Below are positions 5,874 to 20,903 of a stretch of 64,000 nucleotides of DNA, in pieces. The stretch comes from an uncultured Chloroflexia bacterium. Lineage in GTDB: Bacteria; Chloroflexota; Limnocylindria; QHBO01. Each line of letters begins with the position of its first letter. The stretch's first letter is position 1. The translations under genes were made by a program, and so were the position numbers. Location of the stretch: the NCBI GenBank assembly GCA_963787025.1, contig CAWBBG010000015.1, forward strand, positions 32,990-96,989. Reading direction: 5' to 3'. The notes under the pieces are model-generated. The model was not told the DNA's origin. It saw only the letters and a program-made list of their open reading frames with translations, and did no database searches.

Positions 5874-5902
5874 CGGCCCGGCACGGTGTGACGTCCATCG
5901 CA

Positions 5903-5957: not shown

Positions 5958-6128
5958 CGCTGTGGCAGCGCTGTGCAACAATGCGTCGTCTGGTTTTCCG
6001 CTCTGTTTGAGCGTGAAGCGCGCGCCCGTAGCTCAGCGGACAGAGCGGATGGCTTCGGACCAGAAACCCGATTGCGGTGTGCCTCTCCTCGTGGGATGCC
6101 GAGCATTTCGGCCGAGTTATCCGCTGTG
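5958..6128 (+). repeat. att-like repeat copy A: upstream leader, tRNA-Arg 5' half (6022-6062) and 66-nt arm (6063-6128)
   Basis: GCGCCCGTAGCTCAGCGGACAGAGCGGATGGCTTCGGACCA followed by GAAACCCGATTGCGGTGTGCC..CATTTCGGCCGAGTTATCCGCTGTG. Confidence 0.9.
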
Positions 6129-6175
6129 TTTGCCCTCGATCTCACCCTCCGTCCCCAGGCAGCCCCAGCGCGGGG

Positions 6176-7273
6176 TCACTGGAGGGAGGAAACGATCTCG
6201 CCTGCAGCCGAGGTCTCGAGGAGACGCGAGCCAAGCAGATAGACTCGGGCCCGCCGGTCTCCAGACCCGATGAGCCAGCCGCCCGCCACGGCACGGGCCA
6301 AGTCTCTGGTCGTGCTCTGCGGGCTGCGACCAGTAAGCGCGATGTAGTCCGATGCGCGCAGGTGGCGATTGACCCAGGCGAACGCCAGGCCATCGATCAT
6401 CGACGCCGGGAGGGCGCCCTCGGAGATGGCTCGCCGGATGGCGATCATGATTTCGCCGAGCCCGCGGATCCGCGCTAGGACGAAATCGGCCGAGTTCAGA
6501 AGCGAAGTCAGGAAGTACGAGACGAACGGGGTAGCGTCATACCCAGGCTCGTACGAACGACCAACTGCCGTGCGAATCGCGGCAAAGTATGCGGTCCGGT
6601 CGAGATCCAGCTGGGCATCAAGGGAGACCAAGCCGTCGAGGCCAAAGTCATGGCGGATGAGGATGAACCGCGACACGGCGCGTGCCGTCCGGCCATTGCC
6701 GTCGTTGAATGGGTGGATTGCGACCAGCTCGAGATGGGCGAGAGCCGCCGCCACCAACGGACCGTGTCGCGTCGGAGCCGATGTCAGCCATTGGGAGTAT
6801 TCGCGCATCAGAGACGGGACATCCCCCGACGGTGGCGTGCTGAAGATGGTCCCCCCAGCGTCGTCGATAACGCGGTTTTCGCCACGTCGGTATTCGCCGG
6901 GTGTCAGGAGGGGACTCTGACCCCATAGCACGCGCCGATGAATCTCCCGAATGAAGCCTTCATCGGGTCCAATCGCTGGCTTGGCTGCGAGTTCATCGAC
7001 GAGGGCAAGGGCCTCCCGGGTCCCGATAACCTCGCGGGCCTCTCGATCGTTCAGCCGGCGTCGTTCACCGCCGGCGAGCAGAGCTTCAACTTCCACGTCG
7101 GAGAGGGTGTTGCCCTCGATTCGCGTCGTTCCGTGGATGGTCCGTACCCAGGCTCGGTTGCGAAGCCAGCTGGCGTGAGTAGGGTCGATCGGCAGGTTGC
7201 GGAACAGCCAGCGGCGCTGATCCAGGTCCTCAAGGATCCGCCTGAGGCCACGTGAACGGAGCCGATACCGCAT
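6176..7273 (-). CDS. Fic family protein (Fic motif HPFNDGNGRTAR) with N-terminal TxxxEG inhibitory-type motif and C-terminal winged-helix-like region
   Basis: ORF 6176..7381. Start placed at ATG 7273 (MRYRL), preceded by GGGAGGAG. Motifs HGTTRIEGNTL and HPFNDGNGRTAR. Confidence 0.85.
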   Translation of the reverse strand: MRYRLRSRGLRRILEDLDQRRWLFRNLPIDPTHASWLRNRAWVRTIHGTTRIEGNTLSDVEVEALLAGGERRRLNDREAREVIGTREALALVDELAAKPAIGPDEGFIREIHRRVLWGQSPLLTPGEYRRGENRVIDDAGGTIFSTPPSGDVPSLMREYSQWLTSAPTRHGPLVAAALAHLELVAIHPFNDGNGRTARAVSRFILIRHDFGLDGLVSLDAQLDLDRTAYFAAIRTAVGRSYEPGYDATPFVSYFLTSLLNSADFVLARIRGLGEIMIAIRRAISEGALPASMIDGLAFAWVNRHLRASDYIALTGRSPQSTTRDLARAVAGGWLIGSGDRRARVYLLGSRLLETSAAGEIVSSLQ

Positions 7274-7283
7274 GCGCTCCTCC

Positions 7284-7307
7284 CGGTAATTGCGGATATT
7301 ATTACCG
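7284..7307. promoter_or_regulatory. inverted repeat CGGTAAT-N10-ATTACCG in the AT-richer region upstream of Fic-1
   Basis: Read directly. Lies 11-34 nt upstream of the proposed start at 7273. Confidence 0.3.
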
Positions 7308-7370
7308 CCCACGGTAGTATTCGCAACCTTTACAGCGTTACGTTCAGACGAGACCATCCCGCTCCTCGAG

Positions 7371-7531
7371 CGCTGTGGCACAATGCGTCGTCTGGTTTTC
7401 CGCTCTGTTTGAGCGTGAAGCGCGCGCCCGTAGCTCAGCGGACAGAGCGGATGGCTTCGGACCAGAAACCCGGCCGCGGTGTGCCCACCCTCCTGCAGCG
7501 CCGACCATTTCGCGCCGAGTTATCCGCTGTG
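7371..7531 (+). repeat. att-like repeat copy B (tRNA 5' half 7424-7464, arm 7465-7531)
   Basis: Same leader and the same 41 nt as copy A. Arm variant GAAACCCGGCCGCGGTGTGCCCACCC..CCATTTCGCGCCGAGTTATCCGCTGTG. Confidence 0.9.
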
Positions 7532-7538
7532 TCCCCCG

Positions 7539-7955
7539 TCAGTCCGGGAGGAGGAGCAGGGCGTCGACATGGCGCGGTCGGAGGACACCGAAATGGCGAT
7601 GGTCGAGCGTCGCCAGCTTCGGCTCATTCAGGCGCTCGACGACTGTCAGCACAGCCGCGTCGACATAGCCAATGTCGGCATCGGCGTACCGGTCGCACAG
7701 CTCGGCGATCCGACGATGATCGTCCGCGCTTAGGTTCACGAGCCCGTACGCTCCGCTCTCGATGTCCGCGAGCAACGCGACGAGCACGCCTGGGTGAAGG
7801 CTGCGATGGATGAGGTAGTCCACTTCGACGAGCACGGGAGCCGGGATCAGGAGCGGCTCCTCGCTGCTCTCGATCAGGTGCCGACAGCGAGAATGATCGT
7901 CATCACTGCGGTCGAGGGAGGCGTACAGGGGACCGGTATCGAGGATCAGCGCCAC
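7539..7955 (-). CDS. vapC: PIN-domain toxin VapC
   Basis: GTG start overlaps the vapB end. Acidic PIN residues in LDTGP, VEVDY, IGYVDAAV and TLDHRHF. Confidence 0.85.
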   Translation of the reverse strand: MALILDTGPLYASLDRSDDDHSRCRHLIESSEEPLLIPAPVLVEVDYLIHRSLHPGVLVALLADIESGAYGLVNLSADDHRRIAELCDRYADADIGYVDAAVLTVVERLNEPKLATLDHRHFGVLRPRHVDALLLLPD

Positions 7956-8170
7956 GTGCGCGGCTCAGCCAGCTCGTCGGCCGAGCGGCGAGCGATATCG
8001 GCCTTCCCCGACGCACCCGAGCCGATGCTGCGCGGACGCGGCCGGGCAGTCGCCAGCTTCTCGTCGATGGCCTCGCGCACGATGGTGGCCATCGAGACGC
8101 CGCGTTCGGCGGCGAGCCGTCTCAGCCTTCCCCGGAGTTCGGGTGGAAGGGTAAGGGTGGTGCGCTCCAT
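7946..8170 (-). CDS. vapB: ribbon-helix-helix (CopG/VapB-type) antitoxin
   Basis: MERTTLTLPPELRGRLRRLAAERGVSMATIVREAIDEKL is a typical RHH N-terminus. 10-nt overlap with vapC. Confidence 0.8.
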   Translation of the reverse strand: MERTTLTLPPELRGRLRRLAAERGVSMATIVREAIDEKLATARPRPRSIGSGASGKADIARRSADELAEPRTWR

Positions 8171-8193
8171 GGTGCAATGATAGCAGACGATGC

Positions 8194-8210
8194 ATCACCG
8201 TACTGGTGAT
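8194..8210. promoter_or_regulatory. inverted repeat ATCACC-N5-GGTGAT upstream of vapB (candidate operator)
   Basis: Read directly. Lies 24 nt upstream of the vapB ATG. Confidence 0.35.
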
Positions 8211-8224
8211 CTGGCAGACCATAT

Positions 8225-8396
8225 CGCTGTGCGAGCGCTGTGCAACAATGCCTCGTCTGGTTTTCCGCTCGGTTTGAGCGTGAAGCGCGCGCCCGTAGCT
8301 CAGCGGACAGAGCGGATGGCTTCGGACCAGAAACCCGATTGCGGTGTGCCTCTCCTCGTGGGACGCGGAGCATTTCGGGCCGAGTTATCCGCTGTG
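8225..8396 (+). repeat. att-like repeat copy C (tRNA 5' half 8289-8329, arm 8330-8396)
   Basis: Near-identical to copy A. Confidence 0.9.
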
Positions 8397-8441
8397 TCTG
8401 CCACCTGTAGGAGCCTCCCGCGCGCGGGCCCGCCAAGCGCT

Positions 8442-9503
8442 CTAGATGGCGCGCCGGCCGCGACGGCGGCTTCGCCGGTAGGCGAGGACATCGCGCTTCG
8501 TCGAGTACCAGCGACCGTTCTGGTGAGTCGCGCGGAGTCGGCCCGACTGCGCGGCTCTGCGCAGGGCCAGCGGGCTGAGGTCCCGCTCAGCCAGGGCTGA
8601 CAACGGCAGCAGCCGATGCGGGCCGGCGAGGGCCGGCAACAGGAAGCGGTCCAGCCCGTCCTTGACTGCGCGCGCCACGAGCTCCGCGAGGGACCCGCTG
8701 TTACCGCGATCGGCCCGGCGGAGTGCGGCCAGGTACTTCGCGCGGTCCCGCTTGTAGATCAGGGCGGGCGCGTAGCCTCGCCGCACGAGGAGCAGGTTGA
8801 GGGCGAGGCGACCTGCACGCCCATTCCCATCGCGGAACGGATGGATCTGCTCGAAGCGAGCATGGAGCGTAGCCAGGTGCTCCATGAGGTGCTGTCCGCT
8901 GCGGGGTGCCGCATTCGCGTCCCGGATCCAGTCGCTCATGAGCGCGTGGACGTCGGTGAATGGTGGTGGCTTCATCCCGCCGGCAAAGGCGCCGATGTCG
9001 TGCAGGCGGAATGACCCTGGCCCTTCCCCGGCGATGAGCTGTTCAGGAGGCTTCACTTTCCATACCGCCTCGACCAGGGTTCGGTGGATCTGTCGCAGCT
9101 CGGTCAGCGTGATGTGGTCGCTGGGTACCCAGGCCACCGCCTTAGTTGCCTGCTCGTATACCCATTCAGCGGCTTCTGCATAGCCCTGGACCTCGAGATA
9201 CTGCGCGAGCTCTTCATCCCCGACTGCACGTCCTTCTTCGAGCAAGACCCGGACTTGTTTGAGCAGCAGGGTGTTGCCCTCGATCGCGGTAGAGTTGTGC
9301 GCCTCCTCGTACCAGATGCCCGTCCAGATATCGCGTGCCTCAAACGGTGCGGGCAGCCCGCCGATGCGGCGCATCTCCTCGATCTCGCGATCGACGGCGT
9401 CGAAGATGGCGGTGCGCGAGGGGCGGCCGCGCTGCGGCATCTCAATCGGCATGAGTTCGGTACATACCTCGCCGGATAATTGGACCGTACCGAATTCTAG
9501 CAC
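8442..9503 (-). CDS. Fic family protein (Fic motif HPFRDGNGRAGR) with N-terminal SxxxEG motif; start uncertain (9440-9503)
   Basis: ORF 8442..9503 (GTG). Motifs HNSTAIEGNTL and HPFRDGNGRAGR. Divergent from Fic-1 outside the motifs. Confidence 0.85.
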   Translation of the reverse strand: MLEFGTVQLSGEVCTELMPIEMPQRGRPSRTAIFDAVDREIEEMRRIGGLPAPFEARDIWTGIWYEEAHNSTAIEGNTLLLKQVRVLLEEGRAVGDEELAQYLEVQGYAEAAEWVYEQATKAVAWVPSDHITLTELRQIHRTLVEAVWKVKPPEQLIAGEGPGSFRLHDIGAFAGGMKPPPFTDVHALMSDWIRDANAAPRSGQHLMEHLATLHARFEQIHPFRDGNGRAGRLALNLLLVRRGYAPALIYKRDRAKYLAALRRADRGNSGSLAELVARAVKDGLDRFLLPALAGPHRLLPLSALAERDLSPLALRRAAQSGRLRATHQNGRWYSTKRDVLAYRRSRRRGRRAI

Positions 9504-9549
9504 GTGCTTCGGTACGATGACCTCACAAGAAACCCACCGTACCGAATTC
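9456..9549. promoter_or_regulatory. array of four GTACCGAA/TTCGGTAC motif copies at the 5' end of, and upstream of, Fic-2
   Basis: TTCGGTAC 9456-9463, CGTACCGAATTC 9486-9497, TTCGGTACG 9508-9516, CGTACCGAATTC 9538-9549. The central spacer contains GCACGTGC. Confidence 0.35.
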
Positions 9550-9596
9550 CTTCCCGCTGGCCGAACTGTGAGCTAGATCTGACCCCCAGACCATCC

Positions 9597-9768
9597 CGCT
9601 GTCCGAGCGCTGTGGCAGAATGGCTCGCGTGGTCTTCCGCTCGCTTTGAGCGTGAAGCGCGCGCCCGTAGCTCAGCGGACAGAGCGGGTGGCTTCGGACC
9701 AGAAACCCCGCCGCGGTGTGCCTCTCCTCGTGGGACGTCGACCATTTCGGACTGAGTTATCCGTTGTC
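9597..9768 (+). repeat. att-like repeat copy D (tRNA 5' half 9661-9701 with the A-to-G variant, arm 9702-9768)
   Basis: More diverged leader (GGTCTTCCGCTCGCTTTGAGCGTGAA). The tRNA half reads GAGCGGGTGG. Confidence 0.85.
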
Positions 9769-10264
9769 AACTGGATCCGGCCTACGCCGTCTTTGCGGGG
9801 ACCACCATCGCGTTCGCGGGCGCCCCCGGCCTTGACTCCACGTCTGGCTGGGCCGGTTCACCGGAGGCGACAAAGCCGGAATGTCAGTTCGCCTCCGAGG
9901 CCGACCATCGCTCGTGTCTGTGCCACGCCGCAGTCGCCGAAACCACGGTGAAGTTCCAGCCCGCCGTGGCGCGGCAGCAGGGCGCGAGCTGCGATACGCC
10001 GCGATGGTGCGGCGTAGAGGGCGAACTCTGGTGCGTCGAGCCGCGCCGCTTTCGGTCGGCTCCGGGTTGGCATCGGTGAGGCGGCAGAGCGAAGCTGAAC
10101 CCGTTGCCGGAACCGCCGCGCTCTCACCTCCGGCGAAAGAGGACATTCGGCTCTTGCGGCGTGCGCGAGCACGTCGTACACCGGTGCCCAGACCTTCGGG
10201 AGAAGCCACAGCGGCCCCAGGCCAAAGGCACTGAATCCGCCAGGAAGGCGGGGAGGGGGGGATC

Positions 10265-11581
10265 GTGTCTCGCTTCGTCAAGGCGTTCACCATGGCGGTT
10301 GTTGCGCTGCTTGTGGCTTCGCCAATCCGCGCCGGCGACGGCACGTCCGCAGACACCACGGTTTCGGATGAGTTGCTATCGGCGGCAGTCGGGATGAGAC
10401 AGGCGTTCGGCTTGTCGGCGGATGCCGACTACGTGCGTACTCTCATGGCATCCTCGGGCGATGTGGGGACCCTAGTCTGGGGATTCCCACTCACAGCCGA
10501 GGAGATGCAGAGCCTGGACTTGCAGGGTCGGACCGCCTTCCAGGTGAATTCGCAGGCGGTCCAGGAGTACGCGAGCTCGTTGCCGGGGTTTGGCGGGGCA
10601 TATTTCGACCAAGTCGAAGGAGGCCAGCTTGTCCTCCAATTCACCGCACTGACGGCCGCCGACATGGCGCGCATCTCGCAGCTCGCCGCGACCGACGGCC
10701 CGACGACACGCGTTGAGATCGTGCGCTACTCCTTCGCGGCGCTGCAAGCTGCGATGTCCGCCGCCCAATCCGTGATCCAGGCCGTCGCCCCGTCGATTGA
10801 ACTGGAAAGCGTCGGCATTCGTGAGCCGGAGAATGGGCTGGCCGCCAAGGTCCTTGGATCGGCAGTTTCGATGAGCCAGCTGGAGTCCGCGGTGGCCGCA
10901 CAGCTCAGCGTCCCGATCAGGATCGAGGTTGCCTCAGGTCCACTCGTGCCGGGCTCATGCTCTTCCCGCGATGGGCTCTGCCAGCCCGAGAGGGGAGGGG
11001 TCTGGGCAGGAACGACGGTCGAGGGATGCACCTTCGGTTTCGTGGTCGTCAACGGTTCCGATAAGCAGTTCGTTACTGCGGGCCATTGCGGGAGTGCCTC
11101 TGCTTGGTATCAGCCCTATCCGCACGTTCACCTGCTTGGCTCGCTGCAATCGCAACTCTATCCAGGCACGCACATCGACATGGAGCGCGTCCAACTCCCT
11201 GACACCGATGCATCTAGGTACATCTTTGGCGAAGGCTCGACGTTGATCTACGGCAAGCGGATTCCGTCAACCGGCGCGCTCGTCTACGGATCCTTGGGCC
11301 ACTCCAACGCCGTCCGCTCAGGGACGGTGTACGCGGCCTACGGCAGCTACTACGTGAATGGCTACCAGCTAAACGGGGCAAACGTACATAACCTTGTGAC
11401 TCAAGGCGGTGACAGCGGGTCCCCCCTGTATTACCGCGAGAGTGTCCTCCCGTCTGGATACCAGCTCTATGCGACTGCGACGTACAGCGCTGGCCAAAGC
11501 GGTGGTGGAGAGGCCGACAGGTGGTGGGCGCGAGTCAACGATGCGCTGCTCCAATGGTCAGGTTGGGACATCTACCATTAG
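10265..11581 (+). CDS. secreted S1-family serine protease (alpha-lytic protease/streptogrisin-like) with long pro-region
   Basis: GTG start after a G-rich RBS. Signal-like MAVVALLVASPIRA. Catalytic motifs TAGHCG and GGDSGSPLYY. Confidence 0.85.
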   Translation: MSRFVKAFTMAVVALLVASPIRAGDGTSADTTVSDELLSAAVGMRQAFGLSADADYVRTLMASSGDVGTLVWGFPLTAEEMQSLDLQGRTAFQVNSQAVQEYASSLPGFGGAYFDQVEGGQLVLQFTALTAADMARISQLAATDGPTTRVEIVRYSFAALQAAMSAAQSVIQAVAPSIELESVGIREPENGLAAKVLGSAVSMSQLESAVAAQLSVPIRIEVASGPLVPGSCSSRDGLCQPERGGVWAGTTVEGCTFGFVVVNGSDKQFVTAGHCGSASAWYQPYPHVHLLGSLQSQLYPGTHIDMERVQLPDTDASRYIFGEGSTLIYGKRIPSTGALVYGSLGHSNAVRSGTVYAAYGSYYVNGYQLNGANVHNLVTQGGDSGSPLYYRESVLPSGYQLYATATYSAGQSGGGEADRWWARVNDALLQWSGWDIYH

Positions 11582-11652
11582 TGATCGCCTCTGGAGTTTC
11601 GAGAATGCCGCGTGAGTCCCTGCCTGGCGCGGGCCGAAAGGAATCCAGCGGA

Positions 11653-12102
11653 ATGATGACCCTACGACAGCTACGCATCGCCGCATGTGCGACGCTGATC
11701 GCCACCAACCTCGCTGCATGTAGCACTGCGTCACCCACCCCGCAGCCTGCCCCTGCCCGGTCCCCCGCGCCACTCCCGTCCGGCGCCACTGCTCTGACCC
11801 TGCCCACCGCGGCGCCGGAGGCCGTCATTCCGGTGCACTGGGCCTGCCCGGGGAACACGGTTCAGCCCTCAAAGGTCGTCCGCCACGGAGAGGCCGTGGT
11901 CTTCATCCTCCAGACCACCGGCCAACCCATCGACCTCGTGTGGCCGCGCGGCTTCTCCGCGCGACTTCTGAACGACAGGGCCGAGGTGGTGGCTCCGGAC
12001 GGAACGGTCGTGCTCCGGGAGGGAGACGTCTTCTCCGACATCATCAGTGGCGTGCCGGACATCTGCGAGGTGAAGGGCGTGGGCTACCCGCCAGCGTCGT
12101 AG
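11653..12102 (+). CDS. lipoprotein (lipobox LAAC), paralogue of the 15478-15918 lipoprotein
   Basis: MMTLRQLRIAACATLIATNLAAC. Shared motif LVWPRGFSA..VVAPDGTVVLREGDVF, compared with LVIWPAGSDYA..VLLPGGQVISEGDPL in the paralogue. Confidence 0.6.
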   Translation: MMTLRQLRIAACATLIATNLAACSTASPTPQPAPARSPAPLPSGATALTLPTAAPEAVIPVHWACPGNTVQPSKVVRHGEAVVFILQTTGQPIDLVWPRGFSARLLNDRAEVVAPDGTVVLREGDVFSDIISGVPDICEVKGVGYPPAS

Positions 12103-12459
12103 CGGGGCCCTGGCCGATGCCGGATACCCGCCGACCAAACATGCCAGGGTGGCGGGCCTGGCAGGTGATGGAGAGCAAAGCCCGCACCCAAATTCCACCA
12201 CGTCGCGTGAGGAGCGGAGAACCTGTTAGCGGTCGGCCTCGAGTAGCAGCAGCGAAAACGCGATTCCGCCGCTGAAGCCCGAAGGCGCGTCGTCGAACGT
12301 CGGGTCCTCGCGACGCTAGCTCCTCCTCCGCGTCAGCCTGACGTGCACCAAGACGTACACACTTTCCATTGCTTTTTGCATCCGTGGCGGCGTAGCGTCT
12401 ACACATGCCCTGGACCTCTCGTAAACCAACCGCAAACGCCGCAGCCCACCTGAGAGACC

Positions 12460-12996
12460 TCACTGCCCTGGCTCGGCCAGAATGCCCTGGTTGGGCCCAC
12501 GGCTGACTGCCCTGTCACATGAGGCGAGCGGTCCCTCGCAGGCGGCCAGGATGCGGCGCAGCTCGTCATCGGTCAGGATCGGTGGCGCGTGCTCGGGCAC
12601 CTTCGGCTTGTGCATGCGGGCCATGGGGTTGTCGCCCAGCTCAGCCTCGTCGACCAGCCACACAAAGAACGGGCGGATCCCCGAGCGATTGGCCGCGGTG
12701 GCCCGCGTCCAGTGCGCCAGCTGGTCCTCCATGAACGATTCGAGGTGTTCGCGGCGAATGGCGGCCACATCGGTCGGCATGCCACGCGCCTCGAGGAATT
12801 CAGCCAGCCTGCCGAGCGAGGCGAGATAGGTGCGCTGGGTGGCGAGTGAGAGGTTCTCGGCGCGCAGATGCCGCGCGAAGCTCGCCACGTTGGCGCCGAG
12901 GTCGCCGCGGGGTACCATGACCGGACTGGAGGGGGCTGACTGCATCCTGAGACGGCTCTGACGGGTTTCCGAAGACGCGTCGAATTTTCCGCTCAT
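12460..12996 (-). pseudogene. truncated tyrosine integrase (N-terminal SAM-like domain only)
   Basis: The first ~155 aa are identical to the integrase at 23863-24858, up to ILAACEGP. The sequence then becomes unrelated and stops. No catalytic R..HxxR..Y region. Confidence 0.85.
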
Positions 12997-13091
12997 AGCG
13001 CTGTAGTCAATGCCGAATCTGGTTTTCCGCTCTCTTTGAGCGTGAAACGCGCGCCCGTAGCTCAGCGGACAGAGCGGGTGGCTTCGGACCA
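12533..13091 (+). repeat. 559-bp direct repeat, copy 1 (partner 24395-24953), one mismatch (13078 G vs 24940 A)
   Basis: Base-by-base comparison of the two stretches. Identical sub-ORFs appear in the track (12573..12785 and 24435..24647). Confidence 0.9.
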
Positions 13092-13158
13092 GAAACCCGA
13101 CTGCGGTGTGCTCGCCCTCGTGAAGCGGCGACCATTTCGCGCCGAGTTATCCGCTGTC
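12999..13158 (+). repeat. att-like repeat copy E (tRNA 5' half 13051-13091 with the G variant, arm 13092-13158)
   Basis: Leader identical to that of the intact tRNA copy. Arm GAAACCCGACTGCGGTGTGCTCGCC..CCATTTCGCGCCGAGTTATCCGCTGTC. Confidence 0.9.
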
Positions 13159-13282
13159 CCGTCAGCCAGCCCAGGGTGCCAAGGTACGGCAAGGGCTCGG
13201 CTCGCAAGTACCGCCCGAGAACTCCGCGGCTGCCATTTATGACCACTTCCCCGACTTCCCTCGCCCGCCCCTGATTACGGAG

Positions 13283-13453
13283 ATGAAAGGGCCGGTGCGA
13301 GTTGTGGCATTCTCTGGACCGCGAGACGGTGTGCCCCTCCTGGTCGCTCCCGGCGCCACTGCACCTCCCATGGTGAACGTGGTCTGTGTTGTTGATCCGA
13401 ACGGGGAGGAGTGGTACTTCACAGACGTCCCGCTCGATTCTTACCGACCATAG
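13283..13453 (+). CDS. small hypothetical protein (56 aa)
   Basis: ATG preceded by GGAG. MKGPVRVVAFSGPRDGVPLLVAPG..VVCVVDPNGEEWYFTDVPL. Not in the track because it is shorter than 60 aa. Confidence 0.3.
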   Translation: MKGPVRVVAFSGPRDGVPLLVAPGATAPPMVNVVCVVDPNGEEWYFTDVPLDSYRP

Positions 13454-14032
13454 CTACGGCACCATCCCAGAGATATCGACTCCGGTGAAGACGTAGGCCT
13501 CGCCGGAAACCGGAGCCCCCAGCCAGACGCAGAGATCCCGCTCCTGGCCGTTGGCCGGCATGATTGTGGACGGCGGGTGGAATCCGAGCTGAGGCTGGAT
13601 CGGCCCCTGCCATGTGTCTTGGAACACAACCACGAACGTTGGCTGACCAGCGTCCGGAAGACTGAGCCGCGCATTCGGAAAGTGCGCGGCGAAGCCAACG
13701 CCGGAAGACATTGAGAATGCAGCCAGGACGGGTTGAGTATCGCCGTAGCATTCGCTGAAGCGAGGGTCGGCAGAGTCGATTGGGTACCCAGCGCTCCCTC
13801 CGTGCGGCTGCCCCGGTCCGAGAAGTCCCAGAAGAGAATCTCGCCCAACCGCTAAGGCCATGATCAATATGGCCACCGTCACAAACGCCGTGACAGCGAA
13901 CCTTCTCCTCCGCGTACGCTCCCGATCCGGCAAATTGGCCGCAAACTGCCGAAGTGATTCGAGGGCGGCATCGTCTGGTTGGTCGACATCGTGCAGTACG
14001 TGCTCGACAAGATCCTCAAATCGCTCTGTCAT
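13454..14032 (-). CDS. putative anti-sigma factor (single TM, extracytoplasmic C-terminal domain)
   Basis: ATGA overlap with the ECF sigma gene. Central TM FAVTAFVTVAILIMALAV. Confidence 0.55.
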   Translation of the reverse strand: MTERFEDLVEHVLHDVDQPDDAALESLRQFAANLPDRERTRRRRFAVTAFVTVAILIMALAVGRDSLLGLLGPGQPHGGSAGYPIDSADPRFSECYGDTQPVLAAFSMSSGVGFAAHFPNARLSLPDAGQPTFVVVFQDTWQGPIQPQLGFHPPSTIMPANGQERDLCVWLGAPVSGEAYVFTGVDISGMVP

Positions 14033-14565
14033 CTCCGCTCCTCTGCGTCGTAGGCTGCCCTCAGCCGCTGCATTGCGCTCGAGAGTCGTGACTTGACGGT
14101 TCCTTCAGGTATGGACAGCAGATGCCCCGACGCCGCCTGGGTAAGCCCGAGGTAGTAGCGAGCAACGATGACGGCTCGGTCCTTAGTGCTCAGGGCAGAG
14201 AGAGCTCTCCGTAGAGTGCTGTGGGCTACGATTCTGTCGAGATCGACATCGGCCATGTGTATCCAAGCGTCCTCGATTGGTGCCCTCGCTCGTTTTCCCC
14301 TCGTGGCCTTCACTGCGGCCCGAGACACATGGCGAAAGAACCACGCTCGGAAGGCATCCGGCTCGCGGAGCTTTGGCAGGTCCCGCCAAGTGGACAACAG
14401 AGCATCCTGGACTGCATCCGCTGGATCGCATCGGCCAGCAGAAATGAGTCGCGCGATTGACCAGGCCTGAGCGAGGTGAGGCTCGACAAGGTCGGCAAAG
14501 GCACCGCCGTCGCCCAAGATTGAACGCCCCACCAGCGATGGCTGGTCCGACACGATGTTCTCCAC
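14029..14565 (-). CDS. ECF (sigma-70 family, group 4) RNA polymerase sigma factor
   Basis: Region 2-like DAVQDALLSTWRDLPKLREPDAFRAWFF. Region 4 HTH LSTKDRAVIVARYYLGLTQAASGHLLSIPEGTVKSRL. Many non-GC third positions. Confidence 0.8.
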   Translation of the reverse strand: MENIVSDQPSLVGRSILGDGGAFADLVEPHLAQAWSIARLISAGRCDPADAVQDALLSTWRDLPKLREPDAFRAWFFRHVSRAAVKATRGKRARAPIEDAWIHMADVDLDRIVAHSTLRRALSALSTKDRAVIVARYYLGLTQAASGHLLSIPEGTVKSRLSSAMQRLRAAYDAEERR

Positions 14566-14785
14566 GTACTTAGGTTCCTAGCAAGCGCACTTTCGTTCGG
14601 AATCCAATCGGCGTCCAGCGTCTCCGGTGCTGCCCGTGTCGCCTCAGACCAGGGATGTCCGTGTGTAATGGCCGGCTCTGAGCCCATCGAGGGTAAAGGC
14701 GAACTGCCTGCCGGCCGCCGGCCAACGCTTGATCGCCCCGGTCGACGCCGCTGCGCCGGCACCGGAGACCGAGCCGGTCGAGCCC

Positions 14786-14922
14786 GACGAGCAGCGAGCC
14801 GCGGTGGTCAACACCACCATCGAGGAGCTGGCCCGGGAGGGGGCCCGACGCATGCTGGAGCGCGCCCTGGCGGTCGAGGTCGACGAGTTCCTGGGCGGTC
14901 GCCGATACGAGCACCGCCTCTT
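14786..14922 (+). pseudogene. IS256-family transposase N-terminal fragment (remnant)
   Basis: DEQRAAVVNTTIEELAREGARRMLERALAVEVDEFLGGRRYE matches residues of the 17585-18805 transposase. The homology is lost after about 14922. Confidence 0.7.
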
Positions 14923-15477
14923 GGATGCTCCCGCGCCCACGATCAGCAACCGCACGCGTGGCTCAAGCGTGGTGGTTGTCGCCACCGTCGTGGACATCGG
15001 CTCAGCGCGCTCGGCGGTATGGCAGATTGCTTCACATTCCTTGTGGACGGCGCGCCCAAGCTGATCGTGTTCTTCCTGGGTCCCAGCCGAGCGGAGAGCG
15101 GTGCCGATGAGCCAGAGTGGAGCGGTCCAGACACCACTCGACGGTTCGCTGTCGATTCCGGCCTTCTCAACAGCGGTGACAGCAGCCACCAACTGAGAAC
15201 CAGGGCCGCCGTCCAAACCGCGCGACTGGACGCTTGGCGACACTGTCCCGCTTCCTAGGCAAACGCTGCCCATCGGCGAGTTGGGGTCCGAAACGCAGCT
15301 CGCCGACGATATGGCTGCGATCCGTCGACCGTGGCTGCGGCCATCTGACCGGCATCCATCGTCACGATCGCCTCAGCGCGAAGGCGACAGTCGTCGCCGA
15401 AGGGCCTGCAGCCAAACCACCGAAGTCAGGCGAGCACTGCTGTGCCCAACAGTCGGGATCGATGGAGACCCCGGACC

Positions 15478-15918
15478 TCAGGAACCTCGGTCGGCCGTGT
15501 CGATGACGATCACCTCAGAGGCGTTAGGCGCGCAACCGCGGATCGCATAGGCCAACGAGCTGTCCCGGTTGGCGAGCAGAGGTTCCGTCGGCGTTAACGC
15601 TCCGGTACCGACCAGCGGGTCTCCCTCGGAGATTACCTGCCCGCCGGGCAGCAGAACACCCTGCGGCCTGTCGCCCAGGTCCGCGTAGTCCGAGCCGGCG
15701 GGCCAGATGACCAGATAGGTCTCGCCATCGAGCGCGATATTCAGGCACCCGAAATCCGAGACCTCTAGCACGCCGCTGATCTCTCGGCGATCTCCAGGAT
15801 ACGTCTCTCCAGCGTGCTGCCTGGGCAGAGGCATGCCGCCCTCACCGATCCAGCATCCACTCAGGAGCAGGGCGAGCCCAGAGGCCACTATCGTGCGGCT
15901 CACGGTCAAGAACCTCAA
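15478..15918 (-). CDS. lipoprotein (lipobox LLSGC), paralogue of 11653-12102
   Basis: MRFLTVSRTIVASGLALLLSGC, plus the WP.G...EGD motif shared with the unit-4 lipoprotein. Confidence 0.65.
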   Translation of the reverse strand: MRFLTVSRTIVASGLALLLSGCWIGEGGMPLPRQHAGETYPGDRREISGVLEVSDFGCLNIALDGETYLVIWPAGSDYADLGDRPQGVLLPGGQVISEGDPLVGTGALTPTEPLLANRDSSLAYAIRGCAPNASEVIVIDTADRGS

Positions 15919-15952
15919 CCTTCGGCCCTAATGCTCGCGGGTCGCTCCGCCC

Positions 15953-16738
15953 TCAAGCTAGCCGTCGCCGGGACACAGCCAGCGCGCCCATGAATACCGC
16001 GACCGCGGCCGCACCAAGCACCGCCGGCAGAGGAAAGCCTCCGTGCGGAGACACCTCGGGCGTTGGGCCAGCCCCAGCGAGTCCGGCGTCACGATCGCCC
16101 ATCGCCCAAGCCGCTGCGAGTCGACTCAGCCGCGTCCTGAGCGCCGAGGTGTATTCCCCGACGGGAACCGGACGATCAGGAAGCTCAAGTGCCGCGCGAA
16201 ACGCCTCGTCCGCAACAGGCATCGCAACCGAGACACCTCTCGCCGAGCCCAGCACAATCGTGGCGTCCTCCGGGATGTAGACGATCCTGGCATCGGGATC
16301 GCCGACCTCGTTCAACGCATCTGACAGCAGCTGCGCCGGTATCTGGTTCAGGGCGACTGCCTCCGGTCGATTCACAGTGGAGGGCCACTGGACCGTCACG
16401 ACGATCTTGGGGGCGGAATCGATGCCAAGGATCACCCACCACAGGTCAGTGGTGACCGTGGCCATGTCGACGGTTCGACCATCTTCCTCCTGTCGGAATT
16501 GGGAGTCGAGTGCATGCAGAGGCAGGATGGTCACGGGTCGCAGCAACGGGAGGTCTTCAGCAGTGACCCCAAGGCGGTCGCCCTCGGCGGGATCCGCCTG
16601 AAGCAATGCGTCAAATCCTTGGGCGTAGGCCACGGCGACCTTGCCGATCTCATTCGTTCGATCGTCGCCGCCGGCACCCATAAGAAACGGCAGCACCAGC
16701 AGCGCCACAACGGCTGGCGTCGAGAATCGCGCACTCAT
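15953..16738 (-). CDS. hypothetical membrane-anchored protein (N- and C-terminal TM segments)
   Basis: Start at the internal ATG 16738, giving an ATGA overlap with the upstream peptidase gene stop. TM segments VVALLVLPFLMGA and AVLGAAAVAVFMGALAV. Confidence 0.5.
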   Translation of the reverse strand: MSARFSTPAVVALLVLPFLMGAGGDDRTNEIGKVAVAYAQGFDALLQADPAEGDRLGVTAEDLPLLRPVTILPLHALDSQFRQEEDGRTVDMATVTTDLWWVILGIDSAPKIVVTVQWPSTVNRPEAVALNQIPAQLLSDALNEVGDPDARIVYIPEDATIVLGSARGVSVAMPVADEAFRAALELPDRPVPVGEYTSALRTRLSRLAAAWAMGDRDAGLAGAGPTPEVSPHGGFPLPAVLGAAAVAVFMGALAVSRRRLA

Positions 16739-17349
16739 TGGTGAATCTTCCAGAGGGTGTTGGTCCACGTGAACGTTGAGTTGTTCTTGAAGTAGCTCCA
16801 CGAGTACCACACGTACGTTGCCGGGTTGGGCCAGGGATCCATCACCGAGAACTGGTCGGTGCCGCCATCGTGCCAGTAGTAGCCGCGGCCGACGAAGATA
16901 TGGCCACCTCCAGAACTCCAGCCGACCCGAATCAAGAATGGTCGACGCTGAGTCCCGATCTCACCGGTCGTCTGTGACCAACTCAGAGACCACCACTCGT
17001 GGGTCGAATCGATGGCCTTCTTGGCGTGGAGGTAGTTTCCGACGTCGGCCAGCGCCGACGGTTGGTTGCAGTTGCCAGAGCTCGGGTACTGGCAGCAGTC
17101 GGATCGGTTGAACCGATCGTTGGCCTGCTGACATTGCGTGTATGTGATGCCGAACAGGTACTGCACGACAGACTGCGTCGAAGCTGCCCAGCACCACTGG
17201 TTCTGGGTCTGGTGGACCAGCGGGACCGACAGCGAAACGCCGCCCGACGCGGCGTTTGCGGGCAGCGCCGTCACCTGCGACATGGACGCAGCGAGCAGGA
17301 ACGCCGCCGCCGCCGCCGCGCTCCTTCGCAGCCAAGAACGCTCGACCAT
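16735..17349 (-). CDS. secreted papain-like cysteine peptidase (C39/C70-like fold)
   Basis: Signal-like AAAAAFLLAASMSQVTALPANA. Q-x5-C arrangement HQTQNQWCWAAS and downstream GGGHIFVGRGYYW (candidate catalytic His). Confidence 0.6.
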   Translation of the reverse strand: MVERSWLRRSAAAAAAFLLAASMSQVTALPANAASGGVSLSVPLVHQTQNQWCWAASTQSVVQYLFGITYTQCQQANDRFNRSDCCQYPSSGNCNQPSALADVGNYLHAKKAIDSTHEWWSLSWSQTTGEIGTQRRPFLIRVGWSSGGGHIFVGRGYYWHDGGTDQFSVMDPWPNPATYVWYSWSYFKNNSTFTWTNTLWKIHQ

Positions 17350-17559
17350 TGAAGATCTCCCCCGCACCTGACGGCCTGCGGCTGGCATGAGCCGGTCAAG
17401 TAGGCGTCGTCGACACGGTCGCTTCAGGGACTGATTGGATCAAGAGCCATTCGGCCCATTCGCCCTGGCCTTCGTCGGCGGTCTCGAGCAACGGGCCCTC
17501 GATCGCCCAGTTAGTCACGGCGCGCCCGCTGGTCGGCGCTTCCAGACCGGACAACGCGC

Positions 17560-18900: not shown

Positions 18901-18933
18901 GCCGTGACGTTAGCTCTCCTCCTGCGCCACTTC

Positions 18934-18955
18934 AGACGTACACCTAGACGTACAC
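18934..18955 (+). promoter_or_regulatory. tandem direct repeat AGACGTACAC-CT-AGACGTACAC upstream of the 18999 ORF (candidate operator)
   Basis: Read directly. A homologous block lies at about 12338-12365 in unit 4. Confidence 0.35.
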
Positions 18956-18998
18956 ACATTCCCTTGTTTCGCCCCGGCACCCTCGATACGTTGTTCGC

Positions 18999-19319
18999 AT
19001 GCCGATACGCGTTACTCCGGCCCGTCTTCGCGATGAGCTGACCGAACTCTGTGTGCGTGCGTCCGCTGGCGAGCAGCTTGTCGCGGCGGGCGTCCACCAG
19101 GCGCCGGTCCTCATCCGCCCGGTAAGGCGGCGAGACCAGGGTGCGCGAACGAGCCTCACCGTCTTCCGGCGGCAGCTGCATCGCATCCTGCGCCAGGCTG
19201 CCCAGGAGCCGGTCATCGTCACTGGGGGCGGTGATCCTGTGCTGTGGCTGGGTCCGACGGTCGTCCCGGCTGACTTCGGTACGGGGTCGGGGGCTGGGCA
19301 CCGTCGCAGGAGGCGGTGA
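18999..19319 (+). CDS. hypothetical protein, possibly a Phd/YefM-like or Xis-like small DNA-binding protein
   Basis: MPIRVTPARLRDELTELCVRASAGEQLV..APVLIRP loosely fits the Phd/YefM N-terminal pattern. A competing antisense ORF exists (18858..19361). Confidence 0.3.
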   Translation: MPIRVTPARLRDELTELCVRASAGEQLVAAGVHQAPVLIRPVRRRDQGARTSLTVFRRQLHRILRQAAQEPVIVTGGGDPVLWLGPTVVPADFGTGSGAGHRRRRR

Positions 19320-20559: not shown

Positions 20560-20903
20560 CGAGTCCATCCTCGTCCTTACCCTGAACCCACTGGGAAGCC
20601 TGCGCCCGCTCGCACGCCTAGAAGCCCTGTCGCGCTCCGGAACGTGTCCCCGTCATGTCCGTGTGCGAGAGCCGCGACCGTGGCTCGCACAGGGGCGCGT
20701 CAATCTGGCGTGCTCAACCGCCCGCTTGCTGAACCCCGACATCTCTATAGATATGCGCCTGTGCGGTCAAGGAGGGCGCGTGAAAGCGCATGGCTTCCGC
20801 GCAGGCGGCCAGGATGTCGGCTGCCCTGTGCGTACCCGAGCGGACCATGCAGGCCGAAGCCAGCAGCCGGACGAAGGCGGTGTCACCTTGGTCCTCGCCC
20901 TAG

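What the first reader, a model, noticed from the sequence alone, without database searches (positions are those of the whole stretch)
6063..9701. Three integrase-less single-cargo units (Fic, VapBC, Fic) between att-like repeats: cassette-array-like organisation
Units 1-3 (6063-7464, 7465-8329, 8330-9701) are only about 0.9-1.4 kb.
- Each has the same layout: arm, one intact toxin gene or toxin-antitoxin pair on the minus strand with its own AT-richer promoter region, then the leader and tRNA 5' half.
- None encodes a recombinase.
- In units 4 and 5 the position next to the leader is occupied by the integrase gene. In units 1-3 a Fic or vapBC gene occupies it.

Intact ORFs and intact repeat ends on both sides argue against random decay. 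The layout resembles integrase-less cis-mobilisable elements. It also loosely resembles an integron-type cassette array stabilised by toxin modules, using a tRNA half as the recombination site and the unit-5 integrase in trans. I am not aware that such a toxin mini-cassette array on tRNA 5' halves has been described as a system. This is an inference from the sequence only.
Basis: inference. Interest (0 to 1): 0.8.

Follow-up and report, generated by a model that had tools for sequence, protein, structure and literature searches.

The report
Stacked integrase-less mini-islands at tRNA-Arg
Upstream of a tRNA-Arg gene in a soil Chloroflexota (Limnocylindria-like) genome sit five stacked insertions, three of them tiny one-gene units with complete recombination sites but no recombinase; related genomes show that such units are swapped, lost and moved between species, a small-scale version of the known stacking of genomic islands at tRNA genes.

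Summary
Six direct copies of leader plus the first 41 nt of tRNA-Arg(TCG) delimit five units upstream of the intact tRNA. Units 1-3 (1402, 865 and 1372 bp) carry only Fic, VapBC and Fic.

- The same architecture occurs in about 45 other Chloroflexota/Limnocylindria loci. I counted 29 distinct complete unit families. 25 have no integrase (863-3310 bp), and only 3 carry the Xer-like integrase.
- The U1-U2-U3 block is 99.3% identical in three other assemblies whose flanks are only 76-87% identical. It always abuts the tRNA there. The units also recombine in different orders (Ux-U3, Ux-U1-U2-U3, Ua-U1-U2-U3).
- Cargo is not toxin-specific. Elsewhere it is mostly secreted Kelch proteins and ECF sigma factors. 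The Fic proteins resemble the SoFic defence protein and carry an autoinhibition motif.
- The integrase is not an integron integrase.
- Integrase loss is documented: the unit 4 and L058 fragments, and a Kelch unit found with and without the integrase in sister genomes.

Best fit: cis-mobilisable, att-flanked mini-elements that accumulate by tandem accretion. They use the uncommon geometry in which the element supplies the promoter and the 5' half of the tRNA. This is a new variant of a known kind. Mobility is inferred, not demonstrated.

The parts
5979..6062 (+). j0: the leftmost displaced copy of leader plus tRNA-Arg 5' part (positions 1-41). This is the outer attL side of the whole array.
   Evidence: It lies downstream of the PCC-domain gene 5301-5873, the conserved chromosomal neighbour in relatives.
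6063..6128 (+). 66-nt arm, the left end of unit 1. It contains the conserved motifs GCGGTGTG and GAGTTATCCGCTGT.
6176..7357 (-). Unit 1 cargo: a Fic-domain protein. Start is 7357 (393 aa, as called in relatives) or 7273 (365 aa). Core motif HPFNDGNGR and inhibitory-type motif TTRIEG. SoFic-like.
   Evidence: Pfam Fic E=5e-17. PADLOC SoFic E=2.6e-40 over residues 62-374. Motifs. Gene call of 393 aa in L023/L025.
7298..7326 (-). Promoter-like site (TTGCGA-17-AATAAT) upstream of Fic1. It overlaps the inverted repeat GGTAAT-N10-ATTACC at 7285-7306.
   Evidence: This is a consensus match only.
7381..7464 (+). j1: right end of unit 1 (leader plus tRNA 5' part).
7465..7531 (+). Arm, the left end of unit 2.
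7539..7955 (-). Unit 2 cargo: VapC-type PIN-domain toxin (138 aa).
   Evidence: Pfam PIN E=4e-9. The identical protein is on three other contigs.
7946..8170 (-). Unit 2 cargo: ribbon-helix-helix antitoxin (74 aa). It overlaps vapC by 10 nt.
   Evidence: Pfam RHH_1 E=1.5e-7. NCBIfam RelB-like antitoxin, below cut-off.
8246..8329 (+). j2: right end of unit 2.
8330..8396 (+). Arm, the left end of unit 3.
8442..9503 (-). Unit 3 cargo: a Fic-domain protein (353 aa) with HPFRDGNGR and STAIEG. SoFic-like. The direct repeat ACCGTACCGAATTC occurs twice around its start region (9484-9497 and 9536-9549).
9618..9701 (+). j3: right end of unit 3, and the end of the block that is 99.3% identical in L023, L024 and L025.
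9702..13091 (+). Unit 4: a decayed integrase-bearing element. It holds an arm, 438-aa and 193-aa ORFs with no family match, an integrase N-terminal fragment at 12460-12996 (-), and j4 at 13008-13091.
   Evidence: Positions 12529-13090 are 99.6% identical to 24391-24952. Positions 12309-12374 resemble the sequence next to the IS256-family transposase gene in unit 5. Only the SAM-like domain is present.
13092..24953 (+). Unit 5: an 11.9-kb integrase-bearing element. It holds an arm, ECF sigma factor 14029-14565 (-), C39-like peptidase 16735-17388 (-), IS256-family transposase 17585-18805 (-), Replic_Relax protein 19600-20559 (+), IS481-family transposase 20992-21942 (+), the integrase, the leader and the tRNA 5' part.
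   Evidence: The same int plus Replic_Relax pairing occurs in L026 and L027.
23863..24858 (-). Xer-like tyrosine integrase (331 aa from this ATG; homologues start at M17 and are about 315 aa). Its start lies 12 nt from the 84-nt repeat and is divergent from the tRNA. It is the candidate trans-acting recombinase.
   Evidence: Pfam Phage_integrase plus SAM_1. NCBIfam XerC 149.5 bits, below the 335 cut-off. More than 1900 homologues.
24913..24988 (+). The intact tRNA-Arg(TCG). Its promoter, leader and positions 1-41 are supplied by unit 5. Positions 42-76 are the resident 3' part.

Best explanation
The region is a tandem array of small integrative elements that target the single tRNA-Arg(TCG) gene in Limnocylindria-type Chloroflexota.

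**The att site.** The family's attP is about 180 bp. It consists of a right arm (promoter-like region and leader), the first 41 nt of the tRNA, and a 66-nt left arm. The short motifs GCGCTGTGGCA, GAGCGTG and TT(T/A)TCCGCTGT recur on both sides of the tRNA part.

**Integration.**
- A Xer-like tyrosine integrase is encoded right next to the leader.
- It recombines attP with the tRNA gene somewhere within positions 1-41. This much is shown by where identity ends. That the crossover lies in the anticodon loop is inferred.
- The element lands upstream of the tRNA and supplies the promoter, leader and 5' half of the working tRNA.
- The old 5' half is pushed outward.
- Repeated integrations stack units, with the oldest farthest from the tRNA.

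**Units 1-3.** They are integrase-less members of this family (cis-mobilisable elements). Each is one cargo module (a SoFic-like Fic protein, VapBC, a SoFic-like Fic protein) between complete junctions.
- They cannot recombine on their own.
- They can be excised, alone or as blocks, by an integrase supplied by a neighbouring or incoming element such as unit 5. This step is inferred.
- They then travel as composites. The U1-U2-U3 block has recently entered at least four genomes in this way.
- New integrase-less units probably arise when minimal 'integrase plus one cargo' elements lose the integrase gene. This is shown for one Kelch unit and for unit 4, and inferred for units 1-3.
For: **Anatomy**
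- Six tRNA-half copies and five arms in register.
- Integrase adjacent to the leader in unit 5, L026, L027, L028 and L067.
- Leftmost junctions in L009, L010, L015 and L019 keep a different, native leader directly after the PCC gene. The crossover therefore lies inside the tRNA part, and the leader is carried by the element.
- A 63%-identical integrase sits in the same geometry beside tRNA-Lys(CTT), with a homologous leader.

**Family size**
- 15 genome loci and 32 metagenome loci carry the junction.
- 51 complete units fall into 29 families. 25 lack the integrase, 3 carry it and 1 has a fragment.

**Mobility**
- Window 5967-9701 is 99.3-99.4% identical to L023, L024 and L025. Flanks are only 76-87% identical, and the high-identity block ends exactly at the att boundaries.
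- In those genomes the block abuts the intact tRNA, with older units (Ua or Ux) distal. In the window, units 4 and 5 are proximal. Both patterns fit insertion at the tRNA.
- Ux and a U3-like unit occur in other combinations (L003, L027).
- 38 distinct junctions keep the arm motifs.

**Integrase loss**
- Unit 4.
- L058.
- The L028 Kelch-plus-integrase unit (2589 bp) versus the orthologous L015 Kelch-only unit (1436 bp) in 85%-identical genomes.

**Precedent**
- CIME/accretion model (PMC5704250).
- Dehalococcoides ssrA islands (PMC3146451).
- Islands that displace a 5' tDNA fragment exist: 159 of 3919 Islander islands (PMC4383910).
Against: - No excision product, circular form or empty site was observed. 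The tools cannot show activity.
- Several arrays seen end to end contain no integrase (L025, L010, and L023 apart from an unrelated serine recombinase). Mobilisation there would need an integrase from elsewhere.
- The block could have moved by homologous recombination through the conserved tRNA and leader repeats.
- The Ux and U1 arms in L020 are identical to each other but differ from the window's U1 arm. This shows gene conversion among repeats, which weakens 'intact ends' as evidence of selection for mobility.
- The excess of integrase-less units is inflated by short contigs and 8-kb loci, which cannot hold large elements.
- Units 1-3 show no integrase remnant, so their origin by deletion is not demonstrated.
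Confidence: 0.62

Rival explanations
1. Fossil array. Units 1-3 are inert leftovers of once-complete elements. The integrase family no longer acts on them. Their spread and reshuffling come only from host homologous recombination between the roughly 180-bp repeats, or through the conserved tRNA after transformation or transduction.
For: - Complete arrays without any integrase.
- Integrase decay seen directly.
- Within-genome homogenisation of arms in L020.
- Losses such as Ux-U3 versus Ux-U1-U2-U3 need only repeat-mediated deletion.
- The tycheposon island model explicitly invokes degenerated elements accumulating beside tRNAs (10.1101/2020.12.28.424599).
Against: - The high-identity block begins and ends exactly at att boundaries, although the flanks are only 76-87% identical. 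Only about 95 nt and 76 nt of homology are available.
- The 66-nt arm has no obvious host function, yet it is conserved in 38 distinct junctions across distant hosts.
- 10 integrase-less families are the tRNA-proximal, most recent unit somewhere.
- tRNA halves are 87.5-100% intact throughout.
Confidence: 0.2
2. Dedicated cassette platform. Single-gene units with a full attP are the primary mobile form, as in an integron. A Xer-like integrase routinely captures, excises and reorders them individually at the tRNA-Arg site. Integrase-bearing elements are merely the carriers of the enzyme.
For: - 25 of 29 unit families are integrase-less and compact, with one or two genes and 50-180 nt spacers.
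- The same att sites accompany very diverse cargo.
- The same unit occurs at different array positions.
- A minimal 2.6-kb integrase-plus-one-gene element exists.
- The right-end boundary is shared by unrelated units (L006/L046 versus L010).
Against: - There is no fixed integrase or attI next to the arrays.
- The integrase is not IntI-like.
- Cargo orientation is not uniform.
- Cargo appears to have its own promoters.
- Only block transfer is directly evidenced at high identity.
- Close Fic homologues (66-83% identical) sit outside any array, and no cassette-formation mechanism is apparent.
Confidence: 0.15
3. Assembly or binning artefact: the repeats and mini-units result from mis-assembly of a repeated tRNA region.
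For: Repeats do break assemblies. L026 starts 151 nt before the integrase gene, and L030 is bounded by the half at both ends.
Against: The identical U1-U2-U3 order appears inside 74-kb, 156-kb and 648-kb contigs from three separate assemblies, as well as in this window. The architecture recurs in about 45 loci from many projects.
Confidence: 0.02

Closest known systems
Cis-mobilisable elements (CIMEs) and tandem accretion with ICEs/IMEs (the ICESt1/ICESt3 paradigm in Streptococcus; reviewed in PMC5704250)
   Same: - Units are flanked by attL/attR-type sites and have no integrase or transfer genes.
- They sit in tandem with an integrase-bearing element at a tRNA gene.
- The composite moves as one piece.
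- They originate by decay of integrase-bearing elements.
   Different: - The units here are far smaller: 0.9-3.3 kb with one or two genes.
- They are numerous, with up to four or five per array.
- The recombinase is Xer-like.
- The element replaces the 5' side of the tRNA, promoter included, not the 3' end.
- Mobilisation has not been shown experimentally.
Dehalococcoides ssrA-specific genomic islands (PMC3146451)
   Same: - Host phylum is also Chloroflexota.
- Islands form tandem arrays at a single-copy tRNA-like gene and are delimited by direct repeats.
- About half the islands lack the integration module and were proposed to be CIMEs.
- Arrays differ between strains.
   Different: [quoted passage not shown]
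- Its islands are multi-gene (rdhA clusters).
- The present system uses a tyrosine recombinase, a roughly 180-bp junction with the 5' tRNA half, and single-gene units.
Tycheposon-driven genomic islands in Prochlorococcus (10.1101/2020.12.28.424599)
   Same: - Tyrosine-recombinase elements integrate at specific tRNAs.
- New arrivals push older ones into the island.
- Partial tRNAs and degenerated elements accumulate.
- Both cargo-type and capsid-type (satellite-like) members exist. Compare L067, which has a capsid gene.
   Different: - The integrase clade and hallmark genes are different.
- The remnants here keep complete att sites and are seen moving as blocks between genomes.
Integron cassette arrays and CALINs (from general knowledge)
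   Same: - Arrays of compact, mostly single-gene units are each bounded by a recombination site.
- Toxin-antitoxin cassettes are common in sedentary chromosomal integrons.
- Integrase-less arrays exist.
   Different: - There is no IntI-type integrase (42.5 bits against a cut-off of 265).
- The sites are about 180-bp tRNA-derived sequences, not folded attC hairpins.
- There is no attI/Pc platform.
- Cargo appears to have its own promoter.
- The integrase travels on some of the units.
SCCmec and pseudo-SCC composite arrays at rlmH; Acinetobacter pdif modules (from general knowledge)
   Same: - Recombinase-less modules bounded by the same short sites as recombinase-bearing ones.
- They are stacked at one chromosomal site (SCC), or are small one- or two-gene modules that include toxin-antitoxin pairs (pdif).
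   Different: - The recombinases differ: Ccr serine recombinases, or host XerC/D.
- The targets differ.
- The hosts differ.

Membership tests
Cis-mobilisable element (CIME) | Flanked by attL and attR sites of a site-specific integrative element family | tested here: met
   Each of units 1-3 has the arm on its left and leader plus tRNA half on its right. These are the same junctions as in integrase-bearing unit 5.
Cis-mobilisable element (CIME) | Encodes no integrase and no transfer or mobilisation functions | tested here: met
   Pfam finds only Fic, PIN and RHH. tblastn with seven integrase homologues finds nothing in units 1-3.
Cis-mobilisable element (CIME) | Derived from an integrase-bearing element by deletion | tested here: inconclusive
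   Shown for unit 4, L058 and the L015/L028 Kelch unit. No integrase remnant and no integrase-bearing counterpart was found for units 1-3.
Cis-mobilisable element (CIME) | Mobilised together with a helper element after accretion | not testable with these tools
   Support is indirect only: the 99.3%-identical block lies between 76-87%-identical flanks and ends at the att boundaries.
tRNA-targeting tyrosine-integrase island (Islander definition, PMC4383910) | Intact tDNA plus a displaced tDNA fragment in the same orientation, with an integrase gene inside the interval | tested here: met
   Met for unit 5 and for the array as a whole. Units 1-3 individually fail the integrase criterion.
tRNA-targeting tyrosine-integrase island (Islander definition, PMC4383910) | Which fragment is displaced (3' in 3760 islands, 5' in 159) | tested here: met
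   This belongs to the minority 5'-fragment class. The displaced copies are tRNA positions 1-41, upstream of the gene.
Integron | IntI-type integrase | tested here: not met
   TIGR02249 integron integrase scores 42.5 bits against a cut-off of 265. The best matches are XerC and XerD.
Integron | attI/Pc platform next to intI, with promoterless cassettes in one orientation | tested here: not met
   The integrase lies inside a mobile unit and is absent from several complete arrays. About a third of cargo genes in other loci are on the opposite strand. A promoter-like site lies upstream of Fic1.
Integron | attC sites: imperfect palindromes recombined as folded single strands | not tested
   The junction is tRNA-derived and has no Rfam match other than the tRNA itself. 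The 7-nt complementarity between the arm (TCCGCTG) and the D-loop does not co-vary in hosts whose D-loop is CAGTGGA.
XerC/XerD chromosome-dimer resolvases | Equivalog-level match | tested here: not met
   XerC scores 149.5 bits against a cut-off of 335. XerD scores 136.3 against 329.6. The gene is inside an insertion that is absent from related genomes.
Type II toxin-antitoxin VapBC | PIN-domain toxin preceded by an overlapping small DNA-binding antitoxin gene | tested here: met
   PIN (E=4e-9) and RHH (E=1.5e-7). The genes overlap at 7946-7955. Toxicity was not tested.
SoFic anti-phage defence | Full-length match to the SoFic protein family | tested here: inconclusive
   The PADLOC SoFic model gives E=2.6e-40 for Fic1 (near full length) and 7e-28 for Fic3. 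The NCBIfam SoFic equivalog scores only 47.9 and 30.4 bits against a cut-off of 550.

The most novel reading that the evidence does not exclude
Limnocylindria carry a tRNA-anchored gene-cassette system. Single-gene units, each with a portable attP of about 180 bp (element-borne tRNA promoter and leader, a swappable tRNA 5' half that sets target specificity, and a 66-nt arm), are individually captured, excised and reordered by a Xer-like integrase acting in trans. This would be functionally analogous to integrons but evolutionarily independent. In this window's lineage it would be used to assemble and spread a mini defence/addiction island (SoFic-like, VapBC, SoFic-like).
Probability: 0.2. Interest if true: 0.8.

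Novelty: new variant of a known kind. Interest (0 to 1): 0.55.

Why it matters
- **An unexplored mobilome.** Limnocylindria are abundant soil and freshwater Chloroflexota known almost only from MAGs. No paper in the searchable library pairs the name with 'integrase'. This locus gives a concrete and easily searched marker, the junction GGCTTCGGACC|AGAAACCC, for a gene-exchange hotspot in that group.
- **A missed class of units.** One- or two-gene units lacking any recombinase can still keep full recombination sites and cross between genomes about 20% diverged. Island finders that demand one integrase per island (the Islander filter, PMC4383910) would miss them.
- **An unusual geometry.** The element brings the promoter, leader and 5' half of what is the only tRNA-Arg(TCG) gene found in this window. 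Each integration therefore rewires expression of a host tRNA. The 5' half must also match the host's acceptor stem. Halves in arrays always match the host tRNA variant, which may limit host range.
- **A testable question.** If single units prove to be mobilised individually, this would be an integron-like cassette logic built from a different recombinase and site.

Tried and rejected
- **Integron membership.** Rejected on the integrase model score.
- **The arm as a known RNA or a tRNA-like fold.** Rfam finds only the real tRNA in 5500-25500, even at E<=1. ARAGORN calls none of the five half copies. The arm/D-loop complementarity shows no covariation.
- **Integrase remnants in units 1-3.**
  - tblastn with the unit-5 integrase at E<=10 found no match.
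  - tblastn with six homologues at E<=0.01 found no match.
  - blastn with integrase 5' regions found no match.
  - Only L006, L010 and L046 keep a 33-40-nt stub.
- **An integrase-bearing ancestor of the Fic units.** Fic3 homologues are very numerous (4198 at E<=1e-30). The three contexts inspected (83%, 78% and 65% identical) have no tRNA half, arm or integrase. This line was uninformative.
- **Exact look-up of the window's integrase.** The sequence is not on record, so the window's own contig could not be retrieved.
- **A displaced tRNA-Lys half in L068.** None was found within 11 kb.
- **VIT1 cargo in L006 as a captured copy of the flanking VIT1 gene.** It is only 58% identical, so this was uninformative.
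- **A tRNA upstream of the leader in L012.** The sequence looks like a tRNA 3' end, but ARAGORN calls no gene. The idea was dropped.
- **Chance matches.** Hits to the 19-mer junction in Streptomyces and other genomes outside Chloroflexota (L002, L008, L011, L013, L014, L017, L021) lack the tRNA half and were discarded.

Full report
**1. What is in the window**

The window is 69% G+C. ARAGORN finds one tRNA, tRNA-Arg(TCG), at 24913-24988. Its first 41 nt recur five more times upstream on the same strand, ending at 6062, 7464, 8329, 9701 and 13091. There are no mismatches apart from the one A/G position allowed in the search pattern (tRNA position 28), and no match in 100 shuffles.

- With the upstream leader, the repeat is 84 nt at 89-100% identity. 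With the downstream sequence it is 183 nt.
- An alignment of the six junctions shows identity to the real tRNA stopping after GGCTTCGGACCA, next to the anticodon. A shared 66-nt arm follows in the five displaced copies.
- The arm's end, GAGTTATCCGYTGT, occurs exactly five times in 64 kb.

**2. Gene content**

| Unit | Content |
|---|---|
| 1 | Fic protein |
| 2 | PIN-domain VapC with an overlapping RHH antitoxin |
| 3 | A second Fic protein (34% identical to the first over 214 residues) |
| 4 | N-terminal integrase fragment; two ORFs with no family match |
| 5 | ECF sigma factor, C39-like peptidase, IS256- and IS481-family transposases, Replic_Relax protein, full tyrosine integrase |

- Units 1-3 have no recombinase domain and no tblastn match to the integrase.
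- In unit 4, integrase residues 1-156 are 100% identical to unit 5's integrase. Its right-hand 562 nt are 99.6% identical to unit 5's right end, and the break lies next to a sequence resembling the IS256 border. Unit 4 is a decayed integrase-bearing element.
- In unit 5, the integrase start lies 12 nt from the repeat and is divergent from the tRNA.
- The integrase is Xer-like (XerC 149.5 bits, cut-off 335). It is far from integron integrases (42.5 bits, cut-off 265).
- Both Fic proteins have the catalytic HPFx[DE]GNGR motif and an upstream [ST]xxxE[GN] motif. From published work on Fic proteins (my own knowledge), that motif marks intramolecular autoinhibition.
- Both Fic proteins also match the PADLOC SoFic defence model (E=2.6e-40 and 7e-28), but not the NCBIfam equivalog. 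'Toxin' is therefore an over-reading for the Fic units. 'Defence or addiction-type cargo' is fair.

**3. Relatives**

An exact search for the junction GGCTTCGGACC|AGAAACCC in one genome per species returned 15 loci. All but one carry Chloroflexota, Chloroflexia or Candidatus Limnocylindria labels; L003 is binned as Steroidobacteraceae, probably a mis-binned contig. There were also seven chance hits, six in Streptomyces and one in an Elusimicrobia MAG. A degenerate junction search of metagenomes returned 32 more loci. Exact-protein look-ups gave longer contexts.

Mapping tRNA halves across all loci gave 51 complete units in 29 distinct families:
- 25 families have no integrase and measure 863-3310 bp.
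- One has an integrase fragment (unit 4).
- Three carry the integrase (2589, 6799 and 11862 bp).
- Ten integrase-less families are, in at least one array, the unit next to the intact tRNA.

The excess of small units is inflated, because loci were at most 8-20 kb and many contigs are short.

Cargo outside this window's lineage is mostly secreted Kelch-repeat proteins, often paired with an ECF sigma factor. It also includes PD40 propellers, a VIT1 transporter, PhzF-like and GNAT proteins, large regulators and unknown secreted proteins. The architecture is general and not toxin-specific. Fic and toxin-antitoxin cargo (U1, U2, U3, Ua, Ux) is a feature of one lineage.

**4. Evidence of movement**

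Window 5967-9701 (units 1-3 with their junctions) is 99.3-99.4% identical to three contigs of 74, 156 and 648 kb from separate assemblies. The chromosomal flanks of the same contigs are only 76-87% identical to the window. High identity starts at the leader of the leftmost junction and ends at the last base of the tRNA half.

Array orders observed:

| Locus | Order, distal to tRNA-proximal |
|---|---|
| L023 | Ua (Fic) - U1 - U2 - U3 - intact tRNA |
| L024, L025 | Ux (Phd-like pair) - U1 - U2 - U3 - intact tRNA |
| Window | U1 - U2 - U3 - unit 4 - unit 5 - intact tRNA |
| L003 | Ux - intact tRNA |
| L027 | Ux (93% identical) - U3-like unit (96.4%) - 6.8-kb integrase element - a further unit |

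- These patterns fit insertion at the intact tRNA, with newcomers pushing older units outward. They also fit transfer of U1-U2-U3 as a composite through the site formed by unit 3's right end and unit 1's arm.
They are not nested deletions of one large element, and unit number does vary.

**5. Anatomy of the site**

- In several hosts the leftmost junction has a different, short native leader directly after the conserved PCC-domain gene. All internal junctions carry the element-type leader. The crossover therefore lies within tRNA positions 1-41, and the leader belongs to the element. That it lies in the 7-nt anticodon loop, between the symmetric stem halves, is an inference from the identity boundary and from the 'anticodon-centred' class in Islander (PMC4383910).
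- A 63%-identical integrase sits in the same geometry beside tRNA-Lys(CTT), with a clearly homologous leader. This suggests a modular attP: conserved arms plus an exchangeable tRNA 5' half.
- Across 38 distinct junctions, the motifs GCG(C/G)TGTG(GCA), GAGCGTG and TT(T/A)TCCGCTGT recur on both sides of the tRNA half. They are candidate protein-binding sites. This is an inference.
- Two host tRNA variants exist, differing in the acceptor stem and D-loop. Array halves always match the host variant. This is expected if the element's 5' half must pair with the resident 3' half.
- Islands that displace a 5' tDNA fragment are a known minority: 159 against 3760 in Islander (PMC4383910).

**6. Where integrase-less units come from**

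- A minimal 2589-bp element (arm, Kelch gene, integrase, leader, tRNA half) sits beside the tRNA in L028 and L029. The 85%-identical genome L015 has the orthologous Kelch unit without the integrase: about 105 unrelated nt replace about 1.2 kb.
- Unit 4 and L058 retain N-terminal integrase fragments.
- Units in L006, L046 and L010 keep about 55 nt homologous to the integrase's first codons, with nearly the same boundary. This may be either a stub or the true outer edge of the right arm.
- Integrase loss is thus a documented route. For units 1-3 themselves, no remnant and no integrase-bearing counterpart was found. Close Fic homologues lie in ordinary, non-array contexts.

**7. Interpretation**

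The best-supported reading (confidence about 0.6) is tandem accretion of a family of tRNA-Arg-targeting integrative elements. Units 1-3 are cis-mobilisable, integrase-less members that hitch-hike as composites. This matches the published CIME/accretion model (PMC5704250). It has a close precedent in the same phylum, the Dehalococcoides ssrA islands, 16 with and 15 without an integration module (PMC3146451). It also resembles the tycheposon island model (10.1101/2020.12.28.424599).

Features specific to this case:
- the very small, single-gene size of the units;
- their abundance;
- the Xer-like recombinase;
- the 5'-half, promoter-supplying geometry.

Rivals:
- **Inert fossil array shuffled only by homologous recombination (about 0.2).** It is favoured by integrase-free arrays and by gene conversion between arms in L020. 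It is disfavoured by the att-exact boundaries of the transferred block and by conservation of an arm with no host function.
- **Genuine integron-like cassette platform (about 0.15-0.2).** It is favoured by compactness, the same unit occurring at different array positions, and a shared right-end boundary. It is disfavoured by the absence of a fixed integrase platform and of any evidence for single-unit capture.
- **Assembly artefact.** Effectively excluded by four independent assemblies.

No step of recombination has been observed. All mobility is inferred from comparative sequence.

**8. Verdict**

'Integrase-less cis-mobilisable units' holds. 'Toxin cassette array / integron-like / undescribed as a system' is overstated.
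- Novelty: a new variant of a known kind, in an almost unstudied lineage.
- Interest: moderate (0.55).

Noticed in passing
window 12309-13090 versus 18903-18969 and 24391-24952: Unit 4's right 562 nt are 99.6% identical to unit 5's right end, although the rest of the two units is unrelated. The integrase break in unit 4 lies about 150 nt from a 66-nt stretch resembling the sequence beside unit 5's IS256-family transposase gene. This suggests an IS-associated truncation, or recent recombination between the two units.
   Followed up: partly
window 14764-14919 versus 18546-18701 (inverted, 81%); 19015-19165 versus 22093-22246 (direct, 71%): These are internal repeats in unit 5. One is an inverted copy of part of the IS256-family transposase region. 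The other is a diverged direct repeat bracketing the Replic_Relax gene and the IS481-family transposase. Unit 5 looks IS-riddled and possibly rearranged.
   Followed up: no
window 7285-7306 and 9484-9497 / 9536-9549: Operator-like repeats lie in the Fic start regions. GGTAAT-N10-ATTACC is upstream of Fic1 and overlaps the promoter-like site. ACCGTACCGAATTC occurs twice, 52 nt apart, one copy upstream of the listed Fic3 GTG start (9503) and one just inside the ORF. This may indicate autoregulation.
   Followed up: no
L068 (JADEYI010000003.1) and L069: A 63%-identical integrase sits divergently upstream of tRNA-Lys(CTT), with a leader and right arm homologous to the tRNA-Arg elements. The integrase clade seems to retarget by swapping the tRNA 5' half while keeping its arms.
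   Followed up: partly
L067 (CBFDOI010000020.1), reverse-complement coordinates 3030-11098: An 8.1-kb element at tRNA-Arg(TCG) has the same 5'-half geometry. It carries the integrase, a 538-aa protein and an HK97-type capsid gene. It is a satellite-like or mini-prophage member of the family.
   Followed up: no
L023 (contig_18767), locus coordinates 6776-8254: A 492-aa serine recombinase (Resolvase domain) lies just beyond the 3' side of the same tRNA-Arg. The neighbouring ThiS/ThiF genes are absent from the window's flank. A second, unrelated element may use the other side of the tRNA.
   Followed up: no
L020 junctions at 4959 and 6140: The arms of Ux and U1 in this genome are identical to each other over 66 nt. 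They share four differences from the window's U1 arm. This indicates concerted evolution (gene conversion) among repeats within an array.
   Followed up: partly
L004, L005, L012, L022, L053; window 13454-14565: An ECF sigma factor next to a secreted or transmembrane partner (Kelch, TolB-like or unknown) recurs as a two-gene cargo module. Unit 5's left end has the same arm-ORF-sigma layout. Unit 5 may therefore have absorbed such a module.
   Followed up: no
L024 (contig_141237), locus coordinates 10597-11779: Fic1 is split into 236-aa and 173-aa ORFs in this assembly. Several flanking genes are also fragmented relative to L025. These are probably long-read frameshift errors rather than pseudogenes.
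   Followed up: no
L030 (Logan contig, 2608 nt): This contig consists of exactly one Kelch-plus-integrase unit bounded by the tRNA half at both ends. It is compatible with an excised circle or a tandem copy, but equally with a repeat-limited assembly.
   Followed up: no
window 25805-26926 and L006 1164-1892: A VIT1-family gene is a conserved chromosomal neighbour downstream of the tRNA. A 58%-identical VIT1 gene is the cargo of an integrase-less unit in L006.
   Followed up: partly
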